A DNA stretch of 64,000 nucleotides. Source: Clostridiales bacterium. GTDB lineage: Bacteria; Bacillota; Clostridia; TANB77; SIG350. This document shows positions 24,184 through 52,960 of the stretch, in pieces. The notes under the pieces were generated by a model. That model searched no databases, was not told the DNA's origin, and worked only from the letters and a program-made list of their open reading frames with translations. Position 1 is the first letter of the stretch, and each line of letters begins with the position of its first letter. The translations under genes and the position numbers were made by a program. The stretch covers positions 36,721 to 100,720 of the forward strand of contig SVGE01000004.1 in assembly GCA_015056545.1 (NCBI GenBank), given 5' to 3'.

Positions 24184-24912
24184 ATGAAAAATAGAATAGA
24201 TGACTTAGAAATTAATAATTTAAAAATTAAACAAAATACTGATTACTTTTGTTTTGGTATTGATGCTGTATTACTTTCAGATTTTGCTAAAGAAATTAAA
24301 AATAATAGTATTGTTTTAGATATTGGAACAGGTAATGGAATTTTACCTTTACTTTTATCTGCTAAAACTAAAGCAAAAAAAATATATGGTTTAGAGATTC
24401 AAAAAGAATTATATTCTCTAGCTACTGAAAATATTACTATGAATAATTTAAATGAATTAATTGAAATAGTAAATGGAGATATTAAAAATGCTAAACAAAT
24501 TTTTTCTGAAAATATGTTTGACACAATAGTTACAAATCCACCATATAAAAAAATAGGAAGTGGTATAGTAAATGATAATGAATTTGTAAAAATAGCTAAA
24601 CATGAAATATTATGTACTTTAGAAGATATTATTAAAAATGCTAGCTTTGTACTTAAAAACAATGGTAATATTTTTATGGTTCATAGACCAGATAGACTAG
24701 TAGATATACTTTGCCTAATGCGACAATATCATATTGAACCCAAAAATATTAGATTTGTACATTCTAAAATAGGAAGTGAACCTGTTTTAGTTTTAATAAA
24801 AGGAATTAAAAATGCAAAACCATTTTTGAAAATAGATAAACCATTATATATTTATGAGAATAATGGAGAATATACTGACGAAATATATGAAATTTATGGA
24901 AAGGAAAAATAA
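24184..24912 (+). CDS. N6-adenine methyltransferase, TrmN6/YfiC-like (tRNA m6A37)
   Basis: NPPY motif (VTNPPYKK) and SAM-binding LDIGTGNG. Sits upstream of rsmI as in the Bacillus yabB-yabC arrangement. Confidence 0.7.
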   Translation: MKNRIDDLEINNLKIKQNTDYFCFGIDAVLLSDFAKEIKNNSIVLDIGTGNGILPLLLSAKTKAKKIYGLEIQKELYSLATENITMNNLNELIEIVNGDIKNAKQIFSENMFDTIVTNPPYKKIGSGIVNDNEFVKIAKHEILCTLEDIIKNASFVLKNNGNIFMVHRPDRLVDILCLMRQYHIEPKNIRFVHSKIGSEPVLVLIKGIKNAKPFLKIDKPLYIYENNGEYTDEIYEIYGKEK

Positions 24913-24918
24913 AATATT

Positions 24919-25767
24919 ATGAAGAAAGGTAAATTATATATTATAGCTACACCAATTGGGAACTTAGATGATATCTCTTTTAGAGCTATTGAAACTTTAA
25001 AAACTGTAGACCTAATTATTGCTGAAGATACTAGACATACATTAAAATTGCTAAATCATTTTAATATTCAAAAATCTTTATCTAGTTATCATAAATTTAA
25101 TGAACAAACTAAATCTGAAAATATAATAAATAAGCTATTGAATGGATTAAATATTGGACTAGTTTCAGATGCTGGAACCCCAGGAATATGTGACCCAGGA
25201 AATATAATTATTAATGAATGTATAAAAAATAATATTGATGTAATCCCAGTTCCAGGCGCTTGTGCTTTTCTGCAAGCTTTAATTTGTTCTGGTTTTACTA
25301 CAAATAATTTTTCTTTTTTTGGTTTTTTATCTGTAAATAAAAAGGAAAGAAAAAAACAACTTGAGAACATGTCTAATTCAACAACTGACTTAAGTATAAT
25401 ATATGAGGCACCTCATAAGTTATTGACGACTTTGCAAGATTTATTAGAAGTTTTAGGAGATAGAAATATTTGTATAAGTAAAGAAATTACAAAAATTCAT
25501 GAAACACACTATAGAGATACATTATCTAATTCAATTAATTATTTTTCTGAAAATACTCCTAAAGGTGAATATGTTATAATAATTGAAAACTGTAAAAAAA
25601 ATGATATTATATATTCTATGGATAGTAAAGAAACATTAGAGTTATTAAAAGATTTTTATATACTTAATAAAGACTTGAATTCATTAAAAGATATATCTAA
25701 ACTTTTAGCAGATAAATATAATTTATCTAAAAAAGAGATTTATAATTACTTATTAAAAATTAAATAA
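24919..25767 (+). CDS. rsmI: 16S rRNA (cytidine1402-2'-O)-methyltransferase
   Basis: N-terminus LYIIATPIGNLDDISFRAIETLK...AEDTRHT, typical of RsmI. Confidence 0.85.
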   Translation: MKKGKLYIIATPIGNLDDISFRAIETLKTVDLIIAEDTRHTLKLLNHFNIQKSLSSYHKFNEQTKSENIINKLLNGLNIGLVSDAGTPGICDPGNIIINECIKNNIDVIPVPGACAFLQALICSGFTTNNFSFFGFLSVNKKERKKQLENMSNSTTDLSIIYEAPHKLLTTLQDLLEVLGDRNICISKEITKIHETHYRDTLSNSINYFSENTPKGEYVIIIENCKKNDIIYSMDSKETLELLKDFYILNKDLNSLKDISKLLADKYNLSKKEIYNYLLKIK

Positions 25768-29110: not shown

Positions 29111-29164
29111 ATTAATTCCCCCTATCTTAAATTATTCCTTTTAATATTTTTGGTTACAAAAAAG

Positions 29165-29210
29165 ATAACTATACCTTGCTCTGTATAGTTATCTTAAAAA
29201 TATCTATCTC
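29165..29210 (-). terminator. intrinsic terminator-like hairpin inside the cysK-family 5' leader / downstream of the Uma2 genes
   Basis: agataactata-ccttgctctg-tatagttatct 11-bp stem followed by T6 on the minus strand, ~70 nt upstream of the cysK start. Alternative hairpins lie further upstream (29215-29290). Confidence 0.6.
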
Positions 29211-29368
29211 AGATGCAAGCAAACATACACTTGCATCAATTATGCAAGTGCTATTATTTGCAACAGCATCTTTTATTTAATTTACTAATTATATTTTTAT
29301 TCATAATTATCACTTCCATAATTAGTATATTATTTTTATTTAAAATGGTCAATAGTTTTAGTATAATT

Positions 29369-30571
29369 TTATATATCCTTTAGACTTACTTCTAAATTTT
29401 CAAATATATGTGACTTTATATTTTCACCAAAACTATATTGCTGTTTTAATTCATATTTATTTTTTTCATTTAAAACAAATATGTCTGTTATTCTCGTTAC
29501 AGGATCTACTATCCAATATTCTTTTACTCCATATTTTTCATATATCTTATATTTTCTTATTCTATCATGTGTAACATTACTAGATAATATTTCTACTACT
29601 AGTGTTGGTGCTCCATATATTCCATCAGATTTTATCTTTTCCATATCACATACTATCATTATATCTGGCTGAACCACAACTGATGTATTTTCTTTTTCTT
29701 CCCCATCCAAAAATACATCAAATGGTTCAACATATGATTTGCATTTTTTCCCCTTTAAGAATCTTTTAAACTCAAACGAGATTTCACCTAATATATCTTG
29801 ATGAATTTCTTTTGGACTTGCAAATAAAAATATTTCGCCATATATTAACTCATACCTTTTATCTCCAAATATTGCTTCTGCCTCCTCATATGTATAATTG
29901 TTTATTCTATATGCTTCTCTTGGCTCTTGTAACATAGATATATTTTTATTTTCTTTTTTTATTTCATAATCTTCATTATAATATTCTTTTAAATTTACTT
30001 GCAAATTTTCAAATATATATGATTTTATATTTTCATCAAAACTATATTGCTGTTTTAATTCATATTTATTTTTTTCATTTAAAACAAATATATCTGTTAT
30101 TCTCGTTACAGGATCTACTATCCAATATTCTTTTACTCCATATTTTTCATATATCTTATATTTTCTTATTCTATCATGTGTAACATTACTAGATAATATT
30201 TCTACTACTAGTGTTGGTACTCCATATATTCCATCAGATTTTATCTTTTCCATATCACATACTATCATTATATCTGGCTGAACCACTATTTCTCTATCTT
30301 CTTTTTCTTTTCCATCTAAAAAAACATCAAATGGTGCTATATATGATTTGCATTTTTTTTGTTCAAAAAAATTGCCAAATACTCTTGAAATCTTTCCTAA
30401 TATATCTTGATGAATTTCTTTTGGACTTGCAAATAAAAATATTTCCCCATATATTAACTCATACCTTTTATCCCCAAATATTGCTTCTGCCTCCTCATAT
30501 GTATAATTGTTTATTTTATATGCTTCTCTTGGCTCTTGTAACATAGATATATTATCTTTTTCATTTTCCAT
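29369..30571 (-). CDS. tandem double Uma2-family (DUF820, PD-(D/E)xK) endonuclease fusion
   Basis: Two ~200-aa repeats (NISMLQEPREAY...IVDPVTR) encoded by ~600-bp DNA repeats about 97% identical (29400-29990 vs 30000-30590). RBS-supported start at MENEKD. Confidence 0.7.
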   Translation of the reverse strand: MENEKDNISMLQEPREAYKINNYTYEEAEAIFGDKRYELIYGEIFLFASPKEIHQDILGKISRVFGNFFEQKKCKSYIAPFDVFLDGKEKEDREIVVQPDIMIVCDMEKIKSDGIYGVPTLVVEILSSNVTHDRIRKYKIYEKYGVKEYWIVDPVTRITDIFVLNEKNKYELKQQYSFDENIKSYIFENLQVNLKEYYNEDYEIKKENKNISMLQEPREAYRINNYTYEEAEAIFGDKRYELIYGEIFLFASPKEIHQDILGEISFEFKRFLKGKKCKSYVEPFDVFLDGEEKENTSVVVQPDIMIVCDMEKIKSDGIYGAPTLVVEILSSNVTHDRIRKYKIYEKYGVKEYWIVDPVTRITDIFVLNEKNKYELKQQYSFGENIKSHIFENLEVSLKDI

Positions 30572-30597
30572 TTTATATTTCTCCTTTCTATCTCTAT

Positions 30598-31188
30598 TTA
30601 ACAAGATATTCTAAATTTATTATTGTCAATATTTTTTAAATCTACTTCTAAACCATTAAAGATTTTTGATTTAACTATTCCATTAAATAAAATTTTACTT
30701 ATTAATTCATATTTATTTAGATTATCTAATACATATATTTTTACTAATCTTTTATTTATATCAACTATCCAATATTCCTTTACTCCATATTTTCCATATA
30801 GCTTCATCTTCTTTTTATTATAATTAGTAGCATTAACTTCTATTTCAACTATTAATACTGGTACACCATATATTCCATCTTCTTTAATATATTCTTCTTT
30901 TTGTATTACCATAATATCTGGTTTTATTATATATTTTGCTATTTCTTTATTATCACTATCTAATATTAAATCAATTTGTCCCAAAAATGGCTCATAATTC
31001 TTATTCTTAAAATATTTTCTAAAGGTTTCAAATATTTCATACAATATTCGTTGGTGAGTTAATCTTCTGTTTGATATTAAATATTTTTCTCCATTTATTA
31101 CTTTAAATCTATTATCTGATATATTTTCTATCTTATCCATTCTCATCACCTCTGGATATATTGTACAACAATTTTCTTTATTTGTCAA
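30598..31188 (-). CDS. Uma2-family (DUF820) putative endonuclease
   Basis: 196 aa, with the same family motifs (D...EVDL / VKEYWIVD) as the adjacent duplicated gene. Confidence 0.65.
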   Translation of the reverse strand: MTNKENCCTIYPEVMRMDKIENISDNRFKVINGEKYLISNRRLTHQRILYEIFETFRKYFKNKNYEPFLGQIDLILDSDNKEIAKYIIKPDIMVIQKEEYIKEDGIYGVPVLIVEIEVNATNYNKKKMKLYGKYGVKEYWIVDINKRLVKIYVLDNLNKYELISKILFNGIVKSKIFNGLEVDLKNIDNNKFRISC

Positions 31189-31196
31189 TTTGGCAT

Positions 31197-31613
31197 TTAT
31201 ATATTTTCTAATTCATATATTTTTTCAAAGGTAATATTTTTCTCTCTTAATGTACTAGTATCATAAACTATTGAAAAGCATTGATAATACTTAGCAATAG
31301 CAATATGCAAAGCATCATTATATCTGCTTTTTTCAATAATATTATTATCTACATATCTTTTTGCAATTTTTAATATAATATTATTTATTTTTAAAATTTT
31401 AACATTTTCAATTCTTTTTAGCATATCTTTATAAGATATCTCTTGTTCATACATACAATAACTTTTTAATTCCAATAGTGTTAATTCAGATATATATAAA
31501 TCCATTTTCATTTTACTAAAAGTTTCTTCAAAATATGGATTTACTAAGCAAGATATATCTAAGTACGCCCTCCTTATTCTACTAATTCCTCTTAAAACCG
31601 CTTCATTTTCCAT
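31197..31613 (-). CDS. PIN-domain protein (VapC-like nuclease fold)
   Basis: AYLDISCLV N-terminal acidic motif and DALHIAIA distal acidic motif. 138 aa. Last gene of the Tad/VirB4-like operon. Confidence 0.55.
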   Translation of the reverse strand: MENEAVLRGISRIRRAYLDISCLVNPYFEETFSKMKMDLYISELTLLELKSYCMYEQEISYKDMLKRIENVKILKINNIILKIAKRYVDNNIIEKSRYNDALHIAIAKYYQCFSIVYDTSTLREKNITFEKIYELENI

Positions 31614-31616
31614 TAT

Positions 31617-32237
31617 TTAACCTACCTTTCTACATAATTCTCTTTCCATTTCTGTTAATGTATAGTCTTTATTTTCAATTTTGTATTTTACTAACTCATT
31701 TATATTTTTTAATTCATTTACTTTTTCTATAGCTTTAACTGTTGGTAATAATTTTTGGTATTGTTTTTCAATTTGTGTATATATCTTATCCATTGATTTA
31801 ACATCACCATCTTTAAAAGCTTTTTCCCACTTATTATATTTTTCATCTATCTTTTGTAATATTTTTTCTTGTCCTTCAAACCTATTTTTAGTTTCATCAC
31901 TTATTAATTTATCTATTATTATATCTTTGCAATCAGATAACTTATCTGCTATATTTTTATCTACATCTTTCAATGTATTAATTGCATTAGTTACTGTATC
32001 TGATATACTTCCAATAAATCCTTTTTCTTCAATTATATTTTTAACATCTTGCACATCTGAAACACTTCTATTTTTATCAAAAATATTGTCAAAAACATTT
32101 TTTATTTTATTTTGCACTACATCATTTGTTAAAATATTCTTAGCTGTTATAACTATTGTTTCTGTGCTTTTCCTTAATGGTAATGCTTTTACCACATTAT
32201 CAAAAGTTTTATCAAAAACTTGTGCATTTAATTCCAT
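31617..32237 (-). CDS. hypothetical soluble, predicted helical protein
   Basis: 206 aa, K/D/E-rich, no TM. Confidence 0.45.
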   Translation of the reverse strand: MELNAQVFDKTFDNVVKALPLRKSTETIVITAKNILTNDVVQNKIKNVFDNIFDKNRSVSDVQDVKNIIEEKGFIGSISDTVTNAINTLKDVDKNIADKLSDCKDIIIDKLISDETKNRFEGQEKILQKIDEKYNKWEKAFKDGDVKSMDKIYTQIEKQYQKLLPTVKAIEKVNELKNINELVKYKIENKDYTLTEMERELCRKVG

Positions 32238-32249
32238 ACTTATTCCTCC

Positions 32250-33194
32250 TTAATTATCAACTTTTTTAACATAAATAATTAAAAATACCATAATCCATAT
32301 ACTAATAAAATTCCAATAAATAATTATTCTCCCTATAAAATCATTAACCATAATATTATAATTTTCTGTATTAGAATTTATAAAATTAAAATAAACAAAA
32401 AGTGACATCCCTATTAAAATTATTAAAACAATTCTTGCAGACATCGTTTGTTCATTCCTATTAACTTTTTCTCTATAAACTTTCATATATATGTTTTGTG
32501 TTTTATCTAATAAATCATAAAAACTTCCCCCATTTATATAACAACTTTCTAAATTTGTTATTAATTGCTTAAATCTATCAATATTTATTTTATTTTTTAG
32601 ATTATCAAAAGCTTGAGCGATATTTACTCCATTATTAACCTCAAATATAAATATTTTTATATATGTTTCTAATGGTTTTCCTGCATATTTAGCAGTATTT
32701 TTAAAAGCTAAGATTATATCATTATATGTTCTTACTTGATTTTTTAATTGGATAATATATGTTATAAGATTTTTTTCTAATTTTTCTTCATAGACATCTG
32801 CAAGAATTAATAATGCAAATATTGGAATAAAAGAAATGCAACCGCTTAATATTAATGTTGCAATTTTCAATTTAAGAATACTAATTAAAAGAATATATGA
32901 TATGAAGAATAGTATAATACATAATAATATTATTGTCTCTGGGATAAACCACCATAATAATTTATTTTCTGTAATTCCTGTTTTTATTAATAACAAATAT
33001 ATCTTATCTCTTAAATTATATTTTTCATTTATATATTTTTTATTTTTTCTATATACCATTTTTTGTATATATTTTTCATTTTCATTTAAAAGCTTTTGCT
33101 TTATTTTTTTATGTACATTTTTTTCATATAAAATATTTAAACAAAAATATATAAATATACTAATTGTAATAAACAATAAAATTTTAATTGCCAT
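32250..33194 (-). CDS. TadB/TadC-like (T2SSF-domain) inner-membrane platform protein
   Basis: N-terminal TM, cytoplasmic helical domain (...NQVRTYNDIILAFKNTAKYAGKPLETY...GVNIAQAFDNL), then two C-terminal TMs. Confidence 0.6.
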   Translation of the reverse strand: MAIKILLFITISIFIYFCLNILYEKNVHKKIKQKLLNENEKYIQKMVYRKNKKYINEKYNLRDKIYLLLIKTGITENKLLWWFIPETIILLCIILFFISYILLISILKLKIATLILSGCISFIPIFALLILADVYEEKLEKNLITYIIQLKNQVRTYNDIILAFKNTAKYAGKPLETYIKIFIFEVNNGVNIAQAFDNLKNKINIDRFKQLITNLESCYINGGSFYDLLDKTQNIYMKVYREKVNRNEQTMSARIVLIILIGMSLFVYFNFINSNTENYNIMVNDFIGRIIIYWNFISIWIMVFLIIYVKKVDN

Positions 33195-34512
33195 TTTCCT
33201 CCTCCATTATTCTTTTTATTTCTAATTCATTAATATCAAATTTATTTTTAACAATATATTTAGGATCATTTATCTTTTTAAAATATCCTTGAACTTTTCC
33301 ATCAATTATTTTATCTATAACAAATTCAAATAATTTATTATAAATTATTTCTTGCTTTTTTATATCATAATATACTTCTGTTATTTCTTTTACTTTAAAA
33401 TTTTGCATATATATTATTAATTCAATACTTGTCCCTAATATTTGCTCTAAATATTTATTTGTATATTGAATCGCCCTATTATCTCTTTTCATTAAAGTAA
33501 TTAGTCTGTTAATTGTATTTGTTGAACTATTAGAATGAACTGTTGCATATCCACTATGTCCTGTTGAAATACCATCAACAAAAGTCATTGCTTCTGCTCC
33601 TTTTAATTCACCAACAACAATTGCATCATTTGACATTAAAAGTGCTTGTTTAGATAGTTTTTCTAATGTTATATTTTTGTCCTCTGTTCTGTTTTGCACC
33701 ATTTCTCTTTGAATAATATTATCATGTTTGCAAAAAAGCTCTGCTGTTTCTTCATTAGAAGTAATAGCAACTGTTTCTGGAATTTTATTAATAATTGCTC
33801 TAAGTAAAGTAGTTTTTCCACTCGCACCTTTGCCACTAATTATTATATTAATACCAGAAATAGCACATTTTATTAAAAAAATATATATTTGGGGATTTAT
33901 CATACCACTACCAGAAAGTAGTAGAGTTTCAAGATTTTTTAAATTATTAGGTCTATGAATTCTAATAACCAAATTGGGACTAATAATATTTACAGGTTCA
34001 ATTCCCGCTTCTATTCTTAAATTATTTTGTTTATCACTAACAACTGTAACTGGAATTTCATTATTAATTTTTCCACCGTTTTTAAGAATACAATATCTAA
34101 CAAAATTTGAATATTCTTTTTCATCTTCAAATTCATCTATTGCTTTTAACCATTTACCATTTTTCTTTATATATATTTTATTAAACTCAATTGCTCGAAT
34201 ATCTGAAACTTCTTCATCTTCTATATACTTTTGCAATATATAGTAACCAAAGAAACGATCCATAACATTTTTAACAATTTTATTAATATCTATATCTCTA
34301 TTTGAATAACTATTAACAACTTTTTCTTTAACTAAATTTTCAATACTCTTTTTGTTTTTCTCACTAGAAATATTACTAAGCATTTCTGAATGTTTATCTA
34401 ATAAAAAATCTATAATATTATTTACAATCTTATCATTATTGGCCTCATATATCATTTTATCTTCTTGCACAATACTTTGGTTACTGCTGTCTTGCAAAGG
34501 ATTAATTAACAC
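33184..34512 (-). CDS. TadA/CpaF/VirB11-family secretion ATPase
   Basis: Walker A ISGKGASGKTT, Asp/Glu box IVVGELKGAEA, and His box GHSGYATVHSNS. Confidence 0.8.
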   Translation of the reverse strand: MLINPLQDSSNQSIVQEDKMIYEANNDKIVNNIIDFLLDKHSEMLSNISSEKNKKSIENLVKEKVVNSYSNRDIDINKIVKNVMDRFFGYYILQKYIEDEEVSDIRAIEFNKIYIKKNGKWLKAIDEFEDEKEYSNFVRYCILKNGGKINNEIPVTVVSDKQNNLRIEAGIEPVNIISPNLVIRIHRPNNLKNLETLLLSGSGMINPQIYIFLIKCAISGINIIISGKGASGKTTLLRAIINKIPETVAITSNEETAELFCKHDNIIQREMVQNRTEDKNITLEKLSKQALLMSNDAIVVGELKGAEAMTFVDGISTGHSGYATVHSNSSTNTINRLITLMKRDNRAIQYTNKYLEQILGTSIELIIYMQNFKVKEITEVYYDIKKQEIIYNKLFEFVIDKIIDGKVQGYFKKINDPKYIVKNKFDINELEIKRIMEEENGN

Positions 34513-35786
34513 TAAAACACCTCCTTAATAGCCCTACTTAGCTTTGAAAAAATAGGTTTCTTATCATATATACCTAATAATTCTTGATATTTTTGTTTTT
34601 CAATAATATCTGTAAAAACAATTGGAACATTATTATTAATACTTTCTATATATTTATCTTTATAATCAAAAACTTGAACAATCTCTAAATCTTTTTCAAT
34701 ATCATTTATACTTTGCCTATTTAAACTAAATCTAGTTTGTTTATTTAAAATAAATTTAATTTTATTAAATAATACATTCCATGCTTTTGTATAAATATAT
34801 AAAATGTTTTTCATATTAGATATATCTGTATAATTACCTTGAAAAATATAATAAATTAAATCTGCATTTTCCAATGCCCATTTAGTAGAATCTAAAAATA
34901 AGCTACTATTAGTATCAATAACAATATAATCATAAAGTTGCTTTGCTTTATTTAGTATTTGATTATAGTAATTATCACATAAAATACTTTGACAAACGAA
35001 CATTGAATTATTTCCTGTAATAATTGATACATTTTTTTCTTTTGGATATGTAATAACACTTTTTTCAAAAATATCATAATCTAAATTATCTTTTTGTATA
35101 CAATCAACCATATAGTTTAATACACATCTTTTATCATTATCTAAATTGCAAATAATTTCTTTATTCAATTTATTAACACCAAGAATTTTATCAATATTTG
35201 CTGTTGTTGTATCTAAATCAATAATAAGTACTTTTTTATTATATTCTTTTGCAATAGTAATAGCTAAATTACTTACAAATGTACTTTTTCCACTTCCAGA
35301 TAATCCATTTACAGTTATTATCTTTTTGTCTAAAACATTTCTAATAGTTACACTATTTAGATTCTTTGTATTATTAAGTTTTTCTTTTAAATCAATTATT
35401 TGATTATATAATTTTTTCTCATTAGGATTTTCAATTTCATTATCTATATTTTTACATAATAGTTCTAATGTTATTTCTTCTGAATTTATTATTTTAAATA
35501 TTCCTTTAGATATTAAAAAATTAATAAACTCTTTATTCTCTTTATCTAGTATAATAATAATATCTATATTTTGTTTTGTATCTATAATAGCTTCAATAAA
35601 CTCTTTTTTATCAAGTTCACCATCAAGTTCATCATATATTACTAATTTATCTATATTATTTTTAGAAATGACATCCAAAACTGCCTCTTGATAAGCAATA
35701 TCACCAAATAATATGTTATATTTTTCTAATTTTCTTAATTCATTATTAATATTTTCATTTCCAATACCAGTTATAATATTATACAT
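34512..35786 (-). CDS. TadZ/CpaE-like ATPase (N-terminal receiver-like domain plus ParA/MinD-type NTPase)
   Basis: P-loop NGLSGSGKST, A' box KKVLIIDLD, Walker B YDYIVIDTNSS, and ~110-aa N-terminal alpha/beta domain. Confidence 0.6.
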   Translation of the reverse strand: MYNIITGIGNENINNELRKLEKYNILFGDIAYQEAVLDVISKNNIDKLVIYDELDGELDKKEFIEAIIDTKQNIDIIIILDKENKEFINFLISKGIFKIINSEEITLELLCKNIDNEIENPNEKKLYNQIIDLKEKLNNTKNLNSVTIRNVLDKKIITVNGLSGSGKSTFVSNLAITIAKEYNKKVLIIDLDTTTANIDKILGVNKLNKEIICNLDNDKRCVLNYMVDCIQKDNLDYDIFEKSVITYPKEKNVSIITGNNSMFVCQSILCDNYYNQILNKAKQLYDYIVIDTNSSLFLDSTKWALENADLIYYIFQGNYTDISNMKNILYIYTKAWNVLFNKIKFILNKQTRFSLNRQSINDIEKDLEIVQVFDYKDKYIESINNNVPIVFTDIIEKQKYQELLGIYDKKPIFSKLSRAIKEVF

Positions 35787-37596
35787 AATCTATCCTTTCT
35801 AAATTATCTTTATTTTCAATTATATCTTTTTCAAATTCACTGCTAGATACATTTAATAAAATATTATTTTTATTAATAATTAGCAAGCATTCTCCTCTTA
35901 ATAAATTTAATATTCTGTCTTTTTCATTTTCTGAAATATATATTAAATTTTTAAGTTCAGATATATTTTCTTCATTTAATTTAAAAATTGCTTTTATACT
36001 AGAATTATTTATAATAGCTTTTCCATAAACATTTTGATTAATAATTAAATCAGAGATATCTTGAGTTATGGCTGTTGCTCCACCCTTATATTTTCTAATA
36101 GTTTTAAATATTTGTATAACAAAGTTAGCACATAAATCATTTTCTTTTGATGAAATTAGTCTCCATATTTCATCAATATATATAATCTTTTTTTGCAGAT
36201 TATCTTGTTTAACTATATTCCAGAAAAATTCTATTATTACAAATAAAGATAAATTCATATATTCATCTTTAACATCACTTGTATCAATAAAAATCGAATT
36301 ATTTTCTTTATCTACATTTGTATAATTGTTAAAATACTGCAAACTACCAAATATAAAAGGTTTAAGTAAATATATTAAATTAGGATATGTATTTTCTTTT
36401 AGAATAACATCATACAAATCCTGAATTCTAGGCATCTTATCATATGACTTAAATTTAGGTTTAATAATTAGTCTATTACTATTTTGTCTTTCATATAAAC
36501 TTTTATTATCAAAAGTTATTCCTTTATCTTGATATATTTGAATAATCTTTTCTTCTAAGTAATTTTTACTTTCTATATCTAAATCGGGAAAAACTATAGA
36601 AAAGAAAATATTTAAATTTTGTATTTTTTCTTGTAAATAACCAATATTTTCATTATTAATATTTGAATGTTCATATATATCAAAAATATTAATATATGTA
36701 TTAGTATTATTGCCAAGCTTAATATATGTTCCATTAAGTTTTTTGCAAATATTTTTATACTCCCCTTCTGGATCTATAACAAATTGCTTAGTATTAAGCA
36801 AACTGTTTCTAATTACTTGCAATTTAGTGAAATATGATTTTCCACTTCCACTAGCTCCAAACACACAAATATTAGAATTAATATATTTTTCGCTATCAAA
36901 CCTATCTATAATTATTAATGATTTATTTTGAATATTATATCCATAAAGAATTCCTTTCATATCTGATACACTACATGAAATAAATGGATAAAAACTTGAT
37001 ACAGTTTTAGATATCATGTTTCTTTTAGAATTATATTTAATTTCTTTTGAATTTATATTAAATGGTAAGCAAGATTTATATAAATATATATGTCTAAAAT
37101 ATGGTACTTTTCCAATTAATCCATAACTATATAATATTGACTGAATCTTATTAATACTATCTTTTAGCTTATCTAAACTATCTTCATAAATACTAATATA
37201 CATATACACATTGTATATTTTTTCATTATTTATTTGAAGCTCTTTTCTTATTTCTTTAGCATCATTATATGTTATATTTAATACTTCATAATCTTGTTTA
37301 TTACCAGAACTCATTTTCATATCTGTATTAACATTTCCAATATGATAGGTTAGTTTTTTAATAACTTCATAGCTATTAATTTTTTCTAAAAACATTGAAA
37401 ACTGAATGTTACTATCTAAATATAATAATTTTTCAAGCAAACCTATTTCAATAATTCTTGGATAATCTACAATTATCATACCTGAATAATATAGACCATC
37501 AACAAGTAAATAAGCAGGATTTCTATTATCTAATAAGCTGGGCATAATTCTATCTATAACTTCATTTTTAAAATTGAACTTATTTAATGTTTTCAT
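35779..37596 (-). CDS. VirB4/TraC-family (HerA-FtsK superfamily) ATPase, C-terminal 605-aa portion
   Basis: Walker A GASGSGKS, DPEGEY, Walker B IYIDEIWRL, and RKYKGGATAITQD (RK...TQ) motif. Confidence 0.65.
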   Translation of the reverse strand: MKTLNKFNFKNEVIDRIMPSLLDNRNPAYLLVDGLYYSGMIIVDYPRIIEIGLLEKLLYLDSNIQFSMFLEKINSYEVIKKLTYHIGNVNTDMKMSSGNKQDYEVLNITYNDAKEIRKELQINNEKIYNVYMYISIYEDSLDKLKDSINKIQSILYSYGLIGKVPYFRHIYLYKSCLPFNINSKEIKYNSKRNMISKTVSSFYPFISCSVSDMKGILYGYNIQNKSLIIIDRFDSEKYINSNICVFGASGSGKSYFTKLQVIRNSLLNTKQFVIDPEGEYKNICKKLNGTYIKLGNNTNTYINIFDIYEHSNINNENIGYLQEKIQNLNIFFSIVFPDLDIESKNYLEEKIIQIYQDKGITFDNKSLYERQNSNRLIIKPKFKSYDKMPRIQDLYDVILKENTYPNLIYLLKPFIFGSLQYFNNYTNVDKENNSIFIDTSDVKDEYMNLSLFVIIEFFWNIVKQDNLQKKIIYIDEIWRLISSKENDLCANFVIQIFKTIRKYKGGATAITQDISDLIINQNVYGKAIINNSSIKAIFKLNEENISELKNLIYISENEKDRILNLLRGECLLIINKNNILLNVSSSEFEKDIIENKDNLERIDYV

Positions 37597-38158
37597 AACT
37601 ATTTTCCCTTTCGTTTAATATTTGTGATACTTTTTTTATTAAATACTCATCATCATAATCAGAAAAATCTGTAACTATATTCCCACATTTAATTAAATTT
37701 TCTTTTATAACTAAATACATATCATTTAAAATATTTATTATTTCATTTATTGGATTATTATTAAGATTTTTAATTGAGAAAACAATATAGAATTCTTTTG
37801 AATAAATATAATTTGAATTTGTTAGATTTAAGATATATTCAATATATTTATATGAAATTTCATTTTTGTTATTAATTGAATTAATATAATTAATATGATT
37901 TTCTACATTTTCTTTTTTAGTTTTAATAAATATTTGAAAATCAAATGAACAAATTTTTAAGAATTGATTATATTGGTTTAAAATTTGCCTTTTCTCAGTT
38001 TCAGATTTTAAACTAAAATTAATTGGATATACTTGAACTATTTTTGCATATATATTATTTTTTAAAACTAGTACATTTTTTTGAATATCAATAATATCTA
38101 ATAAAGCTTTTATATTTTTTATTTTCATCACCAAATACATTTTACTATAGTTTACCAT
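37580..38158 (-). CDS. N-terminal fragment of the same VirB4-family protein (frameshift-split)
   Basis: 192-aa ORF that overlaps the next ORF by 17 nt in another frame. Together they restore a ~790-aa VirB4-like architecture with the P-loop at about residue 435. Confidence 0.5.
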   Translation of the reverse strand: MVNYSKMYLVMKIKNIKALLDIIDIQKNVLVLKNNIYAKIVQVYPINFSLKSETEKRQILNQYNQFLKICSFDFQIFIKTKKENVENHINYINSINNKNEISYKYIEYILNLTNSNYIYSKEFYIVFSIKNLNNNPINEIINILNDMYLVIKENLIKCGNIVTDFSDYDDEYLIKKVSQILNERENSYENIK

Positions 38159-38287
38159 TATTTGTCAATAAAAATCGTTCGACCAAATATGACAAACCAG
38201 CTTGAAAATAGCTTGTTTACACCATTACATGTTTTTATTTTTTTAATATTTTTATTTAATTTAACATATATTTAATTGGTGATATTT

Positions 38288-52687: not shown

Positions 52688-52960
52688 AAAAACAAAATAG
52701 CTATACTTAAGTCCTACATAGGACGAAGTATAGCTCCGCGTTACCACCTAAATTTATATTAAATACACTTCCGTATTTATATACACTCAAAACTTTTAAC
52801 GCAAGTTAAACGATATTTCCTACTTAATTCAAAAATACATCTCAAAAGTGAAATTTCAATAAAGGTATATTAGTAGGCTCACAGCTTAATAACCTACATT
52901 CTCTCAAATATATTGTCTTTATCTACTTTGCTTTGTCATCGACTTTACTTTAATATATTA
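52688..52960 (-). promoter_or_regulatory. T-box riboswitch leader of pheST
   Basis: Minus-strand AAATTTAGGTGGTAACGCGG matches the T-box consensus (52736-52755). The overlapping terminator hairpin agctatacttcgtcctatgtaggacttaagtatagct plus T-run lies at 52688-52736. Confidence 0.8.

What the first reader, a model, noticed from the sequence alone, without database searches (positions are those of the whole stretch)
29369..31188. Tandem array of three Uma2 (DUF820) nuclease domains, two of them fused by a recent ~600-bp in-frame tandem duplication
29400-29990 and 30000-30590 are ~97% identical at the DNA level and encode repeated NISMLQEPREAY...IVDPVTRITDIFVLNEKNKYELKQQYSF units within one ORF. 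A third, more divergent Uma2 gene follows at 30598-31188. Uma2 proteins are PD-(D/E)xK-fold putative endonucleases. Their position directly downstream of the PIN/ATPase operon suggests a nuclease-rich defence or addiction island. The near-identical repeats are also an assembly-collapse risk.
Basis: seen in the sequence. Interest (0 to 1): 0.55.

Follow-up and report, generated by a model that had tools for sequence, protein, structure and literature searches.

The report
Fused tandem Uma2 nuclease genes, mosaic
Three copies of an uncharacterised predicted nuclease domain (Uma2) sit in a row, two of them fused into one protein; the two are kept almost identical except for one old, divergent helix-strand segment, and this pattern recurs across the family and may mark its specificity surface.

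Summary
On the minus strand, a single-domain Uma2 gene (30598-31140) is followed by a 400-aa gene (29369-30571) with two Uma2 domains from a 609-nt in-frame tandem repeat. All three domains keep the family's H..PD..ExX..K catalytic set. The exact fused protein occurs on at least 16 contigs from separate assemblies, so a one-off assembly artefact is unlikely.

It is not a simple recent duplication. Unit identity is 90%, not 97%. Two tracts are 98-99% identical (dS 0.02-0.08). Codons 59-95 (helix alpha1, strand beta1, hairpin) are anciently diverged (dS about 1.6, dN/dS about 0.2). This points to gene conversion around a retained divergent module.

The same mosaic appears in 29 of 30 other multi-domain Uma2 proteins and in tandem arrays of separate Uma2 genes, for example in Raineya orbicola.

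The pair has its own promoter-like site and terminators. It lies at the end of a low-GC conjugation/Tad-like ATPase module, not a defence operon. Uma2 matches an untested PADLOC defence candidate (PDC-S03). No antitoxin or methylase partner is present.

Best reading: a single-chain pseudo-heterodimeric nuclease. Its function is unproven.

The parts
31160..31188 (-). Promoter-like site TTGACA-17-TACAAT upstream of the first Uma2 gene
   Evidence: 11 of 12 matches. It lies in the 56-nt gap after the PIN-like gene stop at 31197. This is a consensus match only, and the total count of such sites in the region is not above the shuffled expectation.
30598..31140 (-). Single-domain Uma2 gene ('gene3', 180 aa) with H29, D75, E99, K111
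   Evidence: Pfam Uma2 63.5 bits. PADLOC PDC-S03 6.4e-40. Called as 180 aa on 24 public contigs. It is 43-45% identical to units A and B.
30572..30597 (-). 26-nt spacer with ribosome-binding site AAAGGAG before the fused gene
   Evidence: Sequence read.
29369..30571 (-). Fused di-Uma2 gene (400 aa plus stop)
   Evidence: Pfam Uma2 190.2 bits in 2 stretches. The exact protein is on at least 16 contigs and in NCBI as 'Uma2 family endonuclease [Clostridiales bacterium]'. AlphaFold2 model pLDDT 82, pTM 0.63.
29960..30571 (-). Uma2 domain A (residues 1-204) with H54, D100, E124, K137
   Evidence: Fold match to 6okh and 9y1l, TM 0.86-0.88.
29903..29977 (-). Inter-domain linker (residues 199-223, pLDDT below 50). 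It is homologous to the 5' leader, ribosome-binding site and start of the unit. ATG became ATA, and the TAA stop of unit B aligns with TAT in unit A.
   Evidence: Repeat family D2 extends to 30601/29992. Leader homology is only 18 of 30 nt, so this is suggestive.
29372..29959 (-). Uma2 domain B (residues 205-400) with H257, D303, E327, K340
30287..30397 (-). Divergent module of unit A (codons 59-95): exposed face of helix alpha1, strand beta1 and the beta1-beta2 hairpin
   Evidence: dS 1.57, dN 0.285 against unit B. Secondary structure H52-68, E75-78, E95-97.
29678..29788 (-). Divergent module of unit B (codons 262-298)
30398..30553 (-). Near-identical tract 1, copy A (codons 7-58). Its partner in unit B is 29789-29944.
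   Evidence: dS 0.075, dN 0.008.
30038..30286 (-). Near-identical tract 2, copy A (codons 96-178, the catalytic core). Its partner in unit B is 29429-29677.
   Evidence: dS 0.021, dN 0.005. Short-read contigs break inside this tract.
29227..29251 (-). Terminator-like hairpin downstream of the fused gene (also scored on the + strand)
   Evidence: 4 terminator-like sites found against 0.6 expected.
29162..29195 (-). Second terminator-like hairpin (13-bp stem plus T run) before cysK

Best explanation
SHOWN
- Region 29162-31188 (minus strand) looks like a small self-contained unit. It runs from a promoter-like site, through a single-domain Uma2 gene and a 400-aa gene with two fused Uma2 domains, to two terminator hairpins.
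- Each domain has the Uma2 fold and the complete family active-site set (His on helix alpha1, PD, E-x-x, relocated Lys).
- The two fused domains are mosaic paralogues.
  - The N-terminal subdomain and the catalytic core are almost identical.
  - The exposed face of helix alpha1, strand beta1 and the following hairpin (codons 59-95) are anciently diverged and under purifying selection.
- The same rule holds family-wide. Co-resident Uma2 copies, fused or separate, share a homogenised scaffold but differ in this module. Related proteins also carry the module types in swapped order.

INFERRED
- Gene conversion (concerted evolution) keeps the scaffold alike.
- Selection keeps the alpha1-beta1 module different, because it is a specificity surface. 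Most likely it faces the nucleic-acid substrate next to the active-site His. Alternatively it is a partner or dimer surface.
- The fusion arose from a tandem copy whose former leader and start became the linker. It yields a single-chain pseudo-heterodimer with two active sites and two different recognition surfaces.
- Such an enzyme would be suited to an asymmetric target, or to cutting both strands without a second subunit.
- The cellular role is probably that of mobile-element cargo or a candidate anti-invader nuclease. This is not demonstrated for any Uma2 protein.
For: Family and fold
- Pfam Uma2: 190 bits for the fused protein and 63.5 bits for gene3.
- Sequence matches to solved structures 9y1l and 6okh.
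- Foldseek TM 0.72-0.88 to 6okh, 9y1l, 1wdj and 3ot2.
- Catalytic H/D/E/K present in all three domains, following the motif defined in PMC551604.

Mosaic in this window
- dS 0.075 and 0.021 in the two near-identical tracts.
- dS 1.57 (dN 0.285) in codons 59-95, and 0.71 in the last 19 codons.
- 35 of 59 differences fall in 111 nt, p = 6e-12.

Generality
- In 29 of 30 other multi-domain Uma2 proteins the module is less identical between halves than the rest. Fisher p is below 0.01 in 22 of the 31 domain pairs from those 30 proteins.
- The module is of average conservation in the family (0.38 against 0.42). Half-to-half identity there is 0.45, where 0.79 is predicted from family conservation.
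- DNA-level replication in P0014, P0012 and P0041.
- Replication in arrays of separate genes: Raineya orbicola core dS 0.02 against saturated module dS, and likewise L130 and L079.
- A five-domain array with three module types on a 4.58-Mb contig whose name suggests a circular assembly.
- Module order is swapped between P0003 and P0004. P0013 and P0014 share one module type at different positions.
- At equal scaffold identity, intra-protein pairs are more module-divergent than pairs from different proteins (0.47 against 0.66-0.67).

Reality of the fusion.

Own promoter-like site and terminators.

Defence candidate
- PADLOC PDC-S03 at 1.4e-108.
- PDC systems are untested candidates from genes embedded in BREX, DISARM and type I RM loci.

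Variable residues: they lie on one face of alpha1, while I57, L58, I61, F65 and F68 are kept.
Against: - No Uma2 protein has a demonstrated activity or substrate in the literature searched, so every functional step is inference.
- The relative orientation of the two domains is not confidently predicted. pTM is 0.63 and the linker is disordered. I could not inspect contacts or crystal interfaces, so 'specificity surface' against 'dimer interface' is unresolved.
- In the distant homologues Hjc and Hje the dimer interface is alpha2/betaE. This is only an analogy.
- One two-domain protein (P0122) lacks the pattern.
- The module also diverges somewhat faster than the scaffold between unrelated single-domain proteins. 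A neutral conversion-barrier model is therefore not excluded.
- At least one fusion elsewhere (L068) is a frameshift read-through of the spacer and could be an error or an accident. Fusion as such may therefore be incidental.
- The public contigs may come from related sample series.
Confidence: 0.6

Rival explanations
1. Simple recent in-frame tandem duplication of one Uma2 gene. The differences arose afterwards, by fast or positive selection in one patch.
For: The 609-nt period is in frame. Two long tracts are 98-99% identical. Amino-acid changes are concentrated on one helix face.
Against: Synonymous divergence in the patch is saturated (dS 1.57) and dN/dS is about 0.18. The flanks have dS 0.02-0.08. 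Post-duplication selection cannot raise dS roughly 20- to 70-fold locally. The same old-patch, young-scaffold pattern recurs in many unrelated arrays.
Confidence: 0.07
2. Recent duplication followed by import of the divergent segment(s) from another, distant Uma2 paralogue by recombination (cassette replacement), rather than homogenisation of old paralogues.
For: It gives the same mosaic. Module types are found at different positions in close relatives: swapped order in P0003/P0004 and a shared type in P0013/P0014.
Against: No donor was found. gene3 is uniformly 43-45% identical and is not the source. There is no other Uma2 domain in the 64-kb window. No protein in the listed best hits of the public collections is more than 50% identical to the fused protein apart from itself.
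Confidence: 0.2
3. Neutral conversion barrier. The patch diverged first by chance. Mismatches then blocked conversion tracts there. The fusion is an accidental stop-codon loss with no special function.
For: The module evolves somewhat faster than the scaffold between unrelated single-domain proteins. The linker is just a translated spacer. The fusion in L068 is a frameshift read-through.
Against: The trough falls at the same place in 29 of 30 proteins and in several independent arrays. Family-wide conservation of the patch is average. The patch is under purifying selection. Clades of stable two- and three-domain proteins exist.
Confidence: 0.12
4. Assembly artefact: two strain variants of one gene were chained in tandem, or a repeat was mis-resolved.
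For: Metagenome origin. There is a 249-nt near-identical tract. A dozen or so contigs break there (one of each group was read).
Against: The same 400-aa protein occurs in at least 16 contigs from different assemblers (JGI, and ENA 'k141' contigs), with identical DNA in every locus compared. The junction sequence is unique to the tandem arrangement. Contig breaks at a repeat imply two copies. No single-unit contig was seen next to identical neighbours.
Confidence: 0.03

Closest known systems
Uma2 / DUF820 / COG4636 family (Pfam PF05685; structures 1wdj, 3ot2, 6okh, 9y1l)
   Same: The HMM, the fold and the H..PD..E-x-x..K active-site variant are all shared. The family's known tendency to sit in tandem gene copies and to insert in unrelated contexts also applies (PMC551604).
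   Different: Here two domains are in one polypeptide. The 2005 description reports tandem genes but no fusions. It also does not report the scaffold-identical, module-divergent mosaic found here.
PADLOC PDC-S03 (single-gene 'phage defence candidate')
   Same: Strong HMM match for all three domains.
   Different: PDC systems are untested candidates derived by 'guilt-by-embedding'. The PDC-S03 model is single-domain (188 positions), and no other defence gene was detected beside this locus.
Single-chain pseudo-dimeric nucleases made by duplication-fusion: monomeric LAGLIDADG homing endonucleases versus homodimeric ones, and archaeal tRNA-splicing endonuclease alpha'2 forms with two tandem repeats (own knowledge, analogy only)
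   Same: A dimeric nuclease scaffold is duplicated and fused, so the two halves can diverge and recognise an asymmetric substrate.
   Different: These families are unrelated or only fold-related. In Uma2, neither dimer function nor target asymmetry has been shown. Here most of the two halves is actively kept identical.
Type I restriction HsdS subunits: two variable target-recognition domains on conserved repeats, reshuffled by recombination (own knowledge, analogy only)
   Same: A conserved repeated scaffold carries swappable variable modules. Module order and type are exchanged between close relatives.
   Different: HsdS is not a nuclease and is unrelated in fold. No methylase or restriction partner is present here.

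Membership tests
Uma2 (PF05685 / COG4636) | Pfam model score above the gathering cut-off (27 bits) | tested here: met
   190.2 bits in two stretches for the fused protein and 63.5 bits for gene3.
Uma2 (PF05685 / COG4636) | Active-site variant: His on helix alpha1, PD, E-x-x, and Lys relocated to the next helix (PMC551604) | tested here: met
   H54/D100/E124/K137, H257/D303/E327/K340 and H29/D75/E99/K111. Motif definition.
Uma2 (PF05685 / COG4636) | PD-(D/E)xK fold with N-terminal subdomain, as in the solved family members | tested here: met
   The AlphaFold2 model (pLDDT 82) matches 6okh, 9y1l, 1wdj and 3ot2 with target TM 0.72-0.88.
Uma2 (PF05685 / COG4636) | Nuclease activity | not testable with these tools
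   No biochemical characterisation of any member was found.
PADLOC PDC-S03 candidate defence system | Match to the PDC-S03 protein models | tested here: met
   E = 1.4e-108 (two stretches) and 6.4e-40.
PADLOC PDC-S03 candidate defence system | Protection against phage, or location within or next to known defence systems | tested here: inconclusive
   No convincing PADLOC hit in the nine neighbouring proteins. The only hits are partial P-loop matches such as mad8 and HerA. The phenotype is not testable. PDC systems are untested candidates.
Type II toxin-antitoxin (addiction) module | Adjacent small antitoxin gene co-transcribed with the toxin | tested here: not met
   Only 56 nt separate the PIN-like gene from gene3, and 26 nt separate gene3 from the fused gene. 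No small ORF partner is present. Some homologues carry an N-terminal Phd/YefM half-domain, but this locus does not.
Restriction-modification system | Cognate DNA methyltransferase gene next to the endonuclease | tested here: not met
   The neighbours are cysK and a PIN-like gene. The only methyltransferase-like genes are about 3-5 kb away beyond prfA (242-aa and 282-aa ORFs at 24184-25767), in a housekeeping setting; their type was not checked further.
Diversity-generating retroelement target | Template/variable repeat pair differing at adenines, with a reverse transcriptase nearby | tested here: not met
   Patch differences are not adenine-specific (18 of 35 have A in one copy and 11 of 35 in the other). 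Synonymous sites are saturated. No reverse-transcriptase family was seen among the neighbours.

The most novel reading that the evidence does not exclude
The alpha1-beta1 module may be a portable specificity cassette of the very large, uncharacterised Uma2 nuclease family. Tandem arrays and fusions would then encode repertoires, or obligate pairs, of different specificities on one recombining catalytic scaffold. This would be a modular recognition system comparable in logic to HsdS target-recognition domains. The di-Uma2 protein here would be a natural single-chain heterodimer with an asymmetric target.
Probability: 0.25. Interest if true: 0.7.

Novelty: new variant of a known kind. Interest (0 to 1): 0.45.

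Why it matters
Uma2/DUF820 is one of the large predicted-nuclease families that has stayed without a known substrate or role since it was described in 2005. It is now listed as an untested defence candidate.

The fused gene by itself is a modest curiosity. Its mosaic, and the recurrence of that mosaic in dozens of fused proteins and gene arrays from several phyla, gives a concrete lead. Helix alpha1, strand beta1 and the hairpin stand out as the part that co-resident copies must keep different.

That makes a testable prediction: module swaps should change substrate or partner specificity. It also provides natural matched pairs of proteins that differ almost only in that module, which is convenient material for biochemistry.

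Tried and rejected
1. A metagenome scan with gene3, meant to find strains with a single unit, returned only distant relatives (42% identity or less) and no variant of this locus.
2. A genome scan with the TadA-like ATPase found nothing. The species or genus could not be named beyond NCBI's 'Clostridiales bacterium'.
3. Exact-protein look-ups of gene3 and cysK showed only the same arrangement or contigs broken in the repeat. No island-free or single-unit strain was seen.
4. A diversity-generating retroelement was rejected.
5. Toxin-antitoxin and restriction-modification readings were rejected for lack of partners.
6. Phage origin was rejected: one weak hit in 50,697 phage records.
7. Rfam found no RNA family in or next to the locus.
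8. Tandem Repeats Finder did not report the 609-nt repeat because its longest period is 500. The repeat finder did report it.
9. I could not decide between 'DNA-facing' and 'interface' for the module. The tools give no contacts or error maps for the model, and no paper describes the Uma2 crystal assemblies.
10. The literature holds no functional study of Uma2 and no mention of PDC-S03.
Full report
**1. What is in the sequence**

All features lie on the minus strand.
- The ORF listing gives a 411-aa ORF at 29369-30604 and a 196-aa ORF at 30598-31188.
- The fused gene most likely starts at ATG 30571, eight nucleotides after AAAGGAG. That gives the 400-aa protein called in public assemblies.
- The upstream gene most likely starts at ATG 31140, giving 180 aa. 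The TTG at 31188 is the first base of a TTGACA-17-TACAAT promoter-like site.
- Two terminator-like hairpins follow the fused gene, at 29251-29227 and 29195-29162.
- The Uma2 pair therefore looks like its own transcription unit, not the tail of the upstream operon.
- Pfam finds two Uma2 stretches in the fused protein (190 bits) and one in the upstream gene (63.5 bits).
- The window contains no other Uma2 domain.

**2. The repeat**

- The period is 609 nt, or 203 codons.
- Over the 594 comparable nucleotides the two units differ at 59 positions, so identity is 90%.
- The differences are strongly clustered: 35 lie in 111 nt (p = 6e-12).
- Nei-Gojobori estimates for unit A against unit B:

| Codons | dS | dN |
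|---|---|---|
| 7-58 | 0.075 | 0.008 |
| 59-95 | 1.57 (saturated) | 0.285 |
| 96-178 | 0.021 | 0.005 |
| 179-197 | 0.71 | 0.18 |

- A simple young duplication cannot give a roughly 20- to 70-fold local difference in synonymous divergence.
- The units are either old paralogues homogenised by gene conversion in two tracts, or a young duplication that later received old segments.
- The patch differences are not adenine-specific, which excludes a retroelement-type diversifier.
- The linker (YYNEDYEIKKENK...) is the translated former leader and start of the second unit. ATG became ATA, the TAA stop of unit B aligns with TAT in unit A, and the repeat extends to 30 nt upstream of the start.

**3. Is it real?**

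- The exact 400-aa protein lies on at least 16 contigs from JGI and ENA assemblies, and in NCBI as 'Uma2 family endonuclease [Clostridiales bacterium]'.
- Six of the seven loci compared are identical to the window over the full 2,201 nt; the seventh, L065, is identical over the 1,205 nt before it ends.
- L065 and the 5 similar contigs not shown end at window 30096. L153 and the 5 similar contigs not shown begin at about 29596. Only L065 and L153 themselves were read.
- Both break points lie inside the 249-nt near-identical tract, which is how short-read assemblers behave at true repeats.
- No contig with identical neighbours carries a single unit.
- The samples may belong to related series, so long reads remain the clean test.

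**4. What the protein is**

- Each domain matches the solved but functionally uncharacterised Uma2/DUF820 structures 6okh, 9y1l, 1wdj and 3ot2. This holds by sequence and by fold (target TM 0.72-0.88).
- Feder and Bujnicki defined the family as PD-(D/E)xK nucleases with a relocated lysine ('PD-EXX-K') and a conserved histidine on the first core helix (PMC551604).
- All three domains keep these residues: H54/D100/E124/K137, H257/D303/E327/K340 and H29/D75/E99/K111.
- In the AlphaFold2 model (pLDDT 82) the linker (residues 199-223) is disordered. pTM is 0.63, so the packing of the two domains is uncertain.
- The divergent codons 59-95 cover the C-terminal two-thirds of helix 52-68, the loop, strand 75-78, and the hairpin up to strand 95-97.
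- On the helix, the residues with buried-face periodicity (I57, L58, I61, F65, F68) are kept. Positions 60, 63, 64, 66, 67 and 69-71 change. I infer that the variable positions form the exposed face; solvent exposure was not measured.

**5. The same mosaic elsewhere**

- Homology searches found many two-domain Uma2 proteins and one three-domain protein.
- I aligned all domains to one HMM. In 29 of 30 other multi-domain proteins the two halves are less identical in HMM columns 55-78 than elsewhere, typically 0.35-0.6 against 0.8-0.92. Fisher p is below 0.01 in 22 of the 31 domain pairs. P0122 is the exception.
- The segment is not unusually variable in the family at large. Pairwise identity among single-domain members is 0.38, against 0.42 elsewhere. 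From family conservation one would predict 0.79 half-to-half identity, but 0.45 is observed.
- At the DNA level the module has dS of 1.45 or more in P0014, P0012 and P0041. The catalytic core there has dS 0.13-0.32.
- Tandem arrays of separate genes behave the same way:
  - In Raineya orbicola, which is not labelled a MAG, the core has dS 0.02 and the module is saturated.
  - A Bacteroidetes MAG (L130) and a Chloroflexota MAG (L079, four copies) follow the same pattern.
- A 4.58-Mb contig, whose name suggests a circular long-read assembly, carries five Uma2 domains in a row with three module types. One fusion there was created by a frameshift reading through the spacer.
- Close relatives carry the same module types at different positions. 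P0003 and P0004 have them in swapped order, and P0013 domain 2 matches P0014 domain 1.
- At equal scaffold identity, pairs within one protein are more module-divergent than pairs from different proteins (0.47 against 0.66-0.67).
- Together this indicates a family-wide rule: the scaffold evolves in concert within a locus, while distinct module types persist and are reshuffled.

**6. Context**

- Upstream lie a split VirB4-like ATPase (192 + 605 aa), a ParA/TadZ-like ATPase, a TadA/VirB11-like ATPase, one T2SS-F-like membrane protein, a 206-aa protein with no significant family match, and a PIN-like protein.
- The best plasmid relatives of the TadA-like ATPase sit in conjugation/Tad-like clusters. 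On Vallitalea pronyensis pVpro the cluster includes PrgI and a 253-aa plus 599-aa ORF pair in the same position as the split VirB4 here; the 599-aa ORF is annotated 'ATP-binding protein', and I did not check its family.
- Here the module is short. It has no relaxase, coupling protein or pilin detected in the ORFs I examined.
- GC is 20.7% for the module and 23.6% for the Uma2 unit, against 24.6-26% for the flanks.
- A 14-nt direct repeat occurs only at 29271 and 38250, bracketing the block. The whole-window expectation is 0.18. I estimate a chance probability of about 0.01-0.1 for the two flanks compared.
- The block lies between housekeeping-type genes: two Gate-domain genes (spmA/B-like by my reading) on one side, and cysK-like and prfA genes on the other.
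- PADLOC gives no convincing defence hit for the ATPases. It matches all three Uma2 domains to PDC-S03.
- PDC-S03 is one of 145 untested candidates derived from genes embedded in BREX, DISARM and type I RM loci.
- Uma2 is practically absent from phage genomes: 1 of 50,697 records.
- There is no antitoxin or methylase partner.

**7. Mechanism proposed**

Shown:
- Three intact Uma2 domains are present.
- Two of them are fused.
- The scaffold is homogenised.
- An old alpha1-beta1 module is retained.
- The rule is general across the family.

Inferred:
- The module is a specificity surface next to the active-site histidine.
- The fusion gives a single-chain pseudo-heterodimer with two active sites and two recognition surfaces.
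- The role is mobile-element cargo or a candidate anti-invader nuclease.

The main uncertainty is that no Uma2 activity is known. The second is whether the module faces the substrate or a partner. In the distant homologues Hjc and Hje the dimer interface is alpha2/betaE rather than alpha1, which mildly favours a substrate-facing role.

**8. Verdict**

- The 'recent duplication' and 'defence/addiction island' readings are only partly supported.
- The locus is a new variant of a known family. Single-chain two-domain Uma2 proteins exist in databases, but I did not find them described.
- The added value is the recurrent mosaic, which singles out a candidate specificity module.

Noticed in passing
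window 31197-38158 (minus strand): This is a compact conjugation/Tad-like module. It contains a VirB4-like ATPase split into 192-aa and 605-aa ORFs, a ParA/TadZ-like ATPase (424 aa), a TadA/VirB11-like ATPase (442 aa), one T2SS-F-like protein (314 aa), a 206-aa protein with no significant family match, and a PIN-like protein (138 aa). No relaxase, coupling protein or pilin was seen. A 253-aa plus 599-aa ORF pair occupies the equivalent position on Vallitalea plasmid pVpro (L070), which suggests the split may be native rather than a frameshift; the family of those two ORFs was not checked. A TTGACA-18-TAAAAT promoter-like site lies at 38168-38139.
   Followed up: partly
window 29271-29284 and 38250-38263: The 14-nt direct repeat TTTTATTTAATTTA occurs only twice in the window. 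The two copies bracket the low-GC 9-kb block that holds the ATPase module and the Uma2 genes. It could be an insertion scar or chance in AT-rich spacers. No integrase was seen in the block.
   Followed up: partly
homologues P0042, P0096, P0112, P0040, P0115, P0216: Close single-domain relatives carry extra domains. These are an N-terminal half of Phd/YefM antitoxin (about 25 of the best 120 hits), DnaA_N, an ATPase_2 plus DUF234 module, or a C-terminal HD domain. This suggests that DNA-binding or regulatory add-ons are common in the family.
   Followed up: partly
L068:4389-7319: A 4.58-Mb contig, whose name suggests a circular long-read assembly, has Uma2 genes of 187, 382 (fused), 184 and 184 aa in a row, with three alpha1 module types. 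They are inserted between two CoA-transferase genes and lie next to a PIN/Phd pair. The fusion reads through the spacer after a frameshift, so it may be a sequencing error or an accidental fusion.
   Followed up: partly
P0003/P0004 and P0013/P0014: Pairs of closely related two-domain proteins carry the same alpha1 module types at different positions, implying cassette-like exchange. In P0003 and P0004 the order is swapped. P0013 domain 2 matches P0014 domain 1.
   Followed up: partly
L065 (ends at window 30096) and L153 (starts at about window 29596): About a dozen public short-read contigs appear to break inside the 249-nt near-identical tract of the two units; only L065 and L153 were read, and the other ten are listed as similar places. 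This is a practical warning that the locus is often fragmented in metagenome assemblies.
   Followed up: yes
window 52716-52948 (minus strand): A T-box leader (Rfam RF00230, 111.8 bits) lies upstream of 342-aa and 793-aa ORFs. Their sizes are typical of pheS and pheT, but I did not check this.
   Followed up: no
window 29227-29251: The GC-rich hairpin GCACTTGCAT...ATGCAAGTG scores as a terminator on both strands. It sits between the fused Uma2 gene and cysK and is followed by a second 13-bp-stem hairpin at 29162-29195.
   Followed up: no
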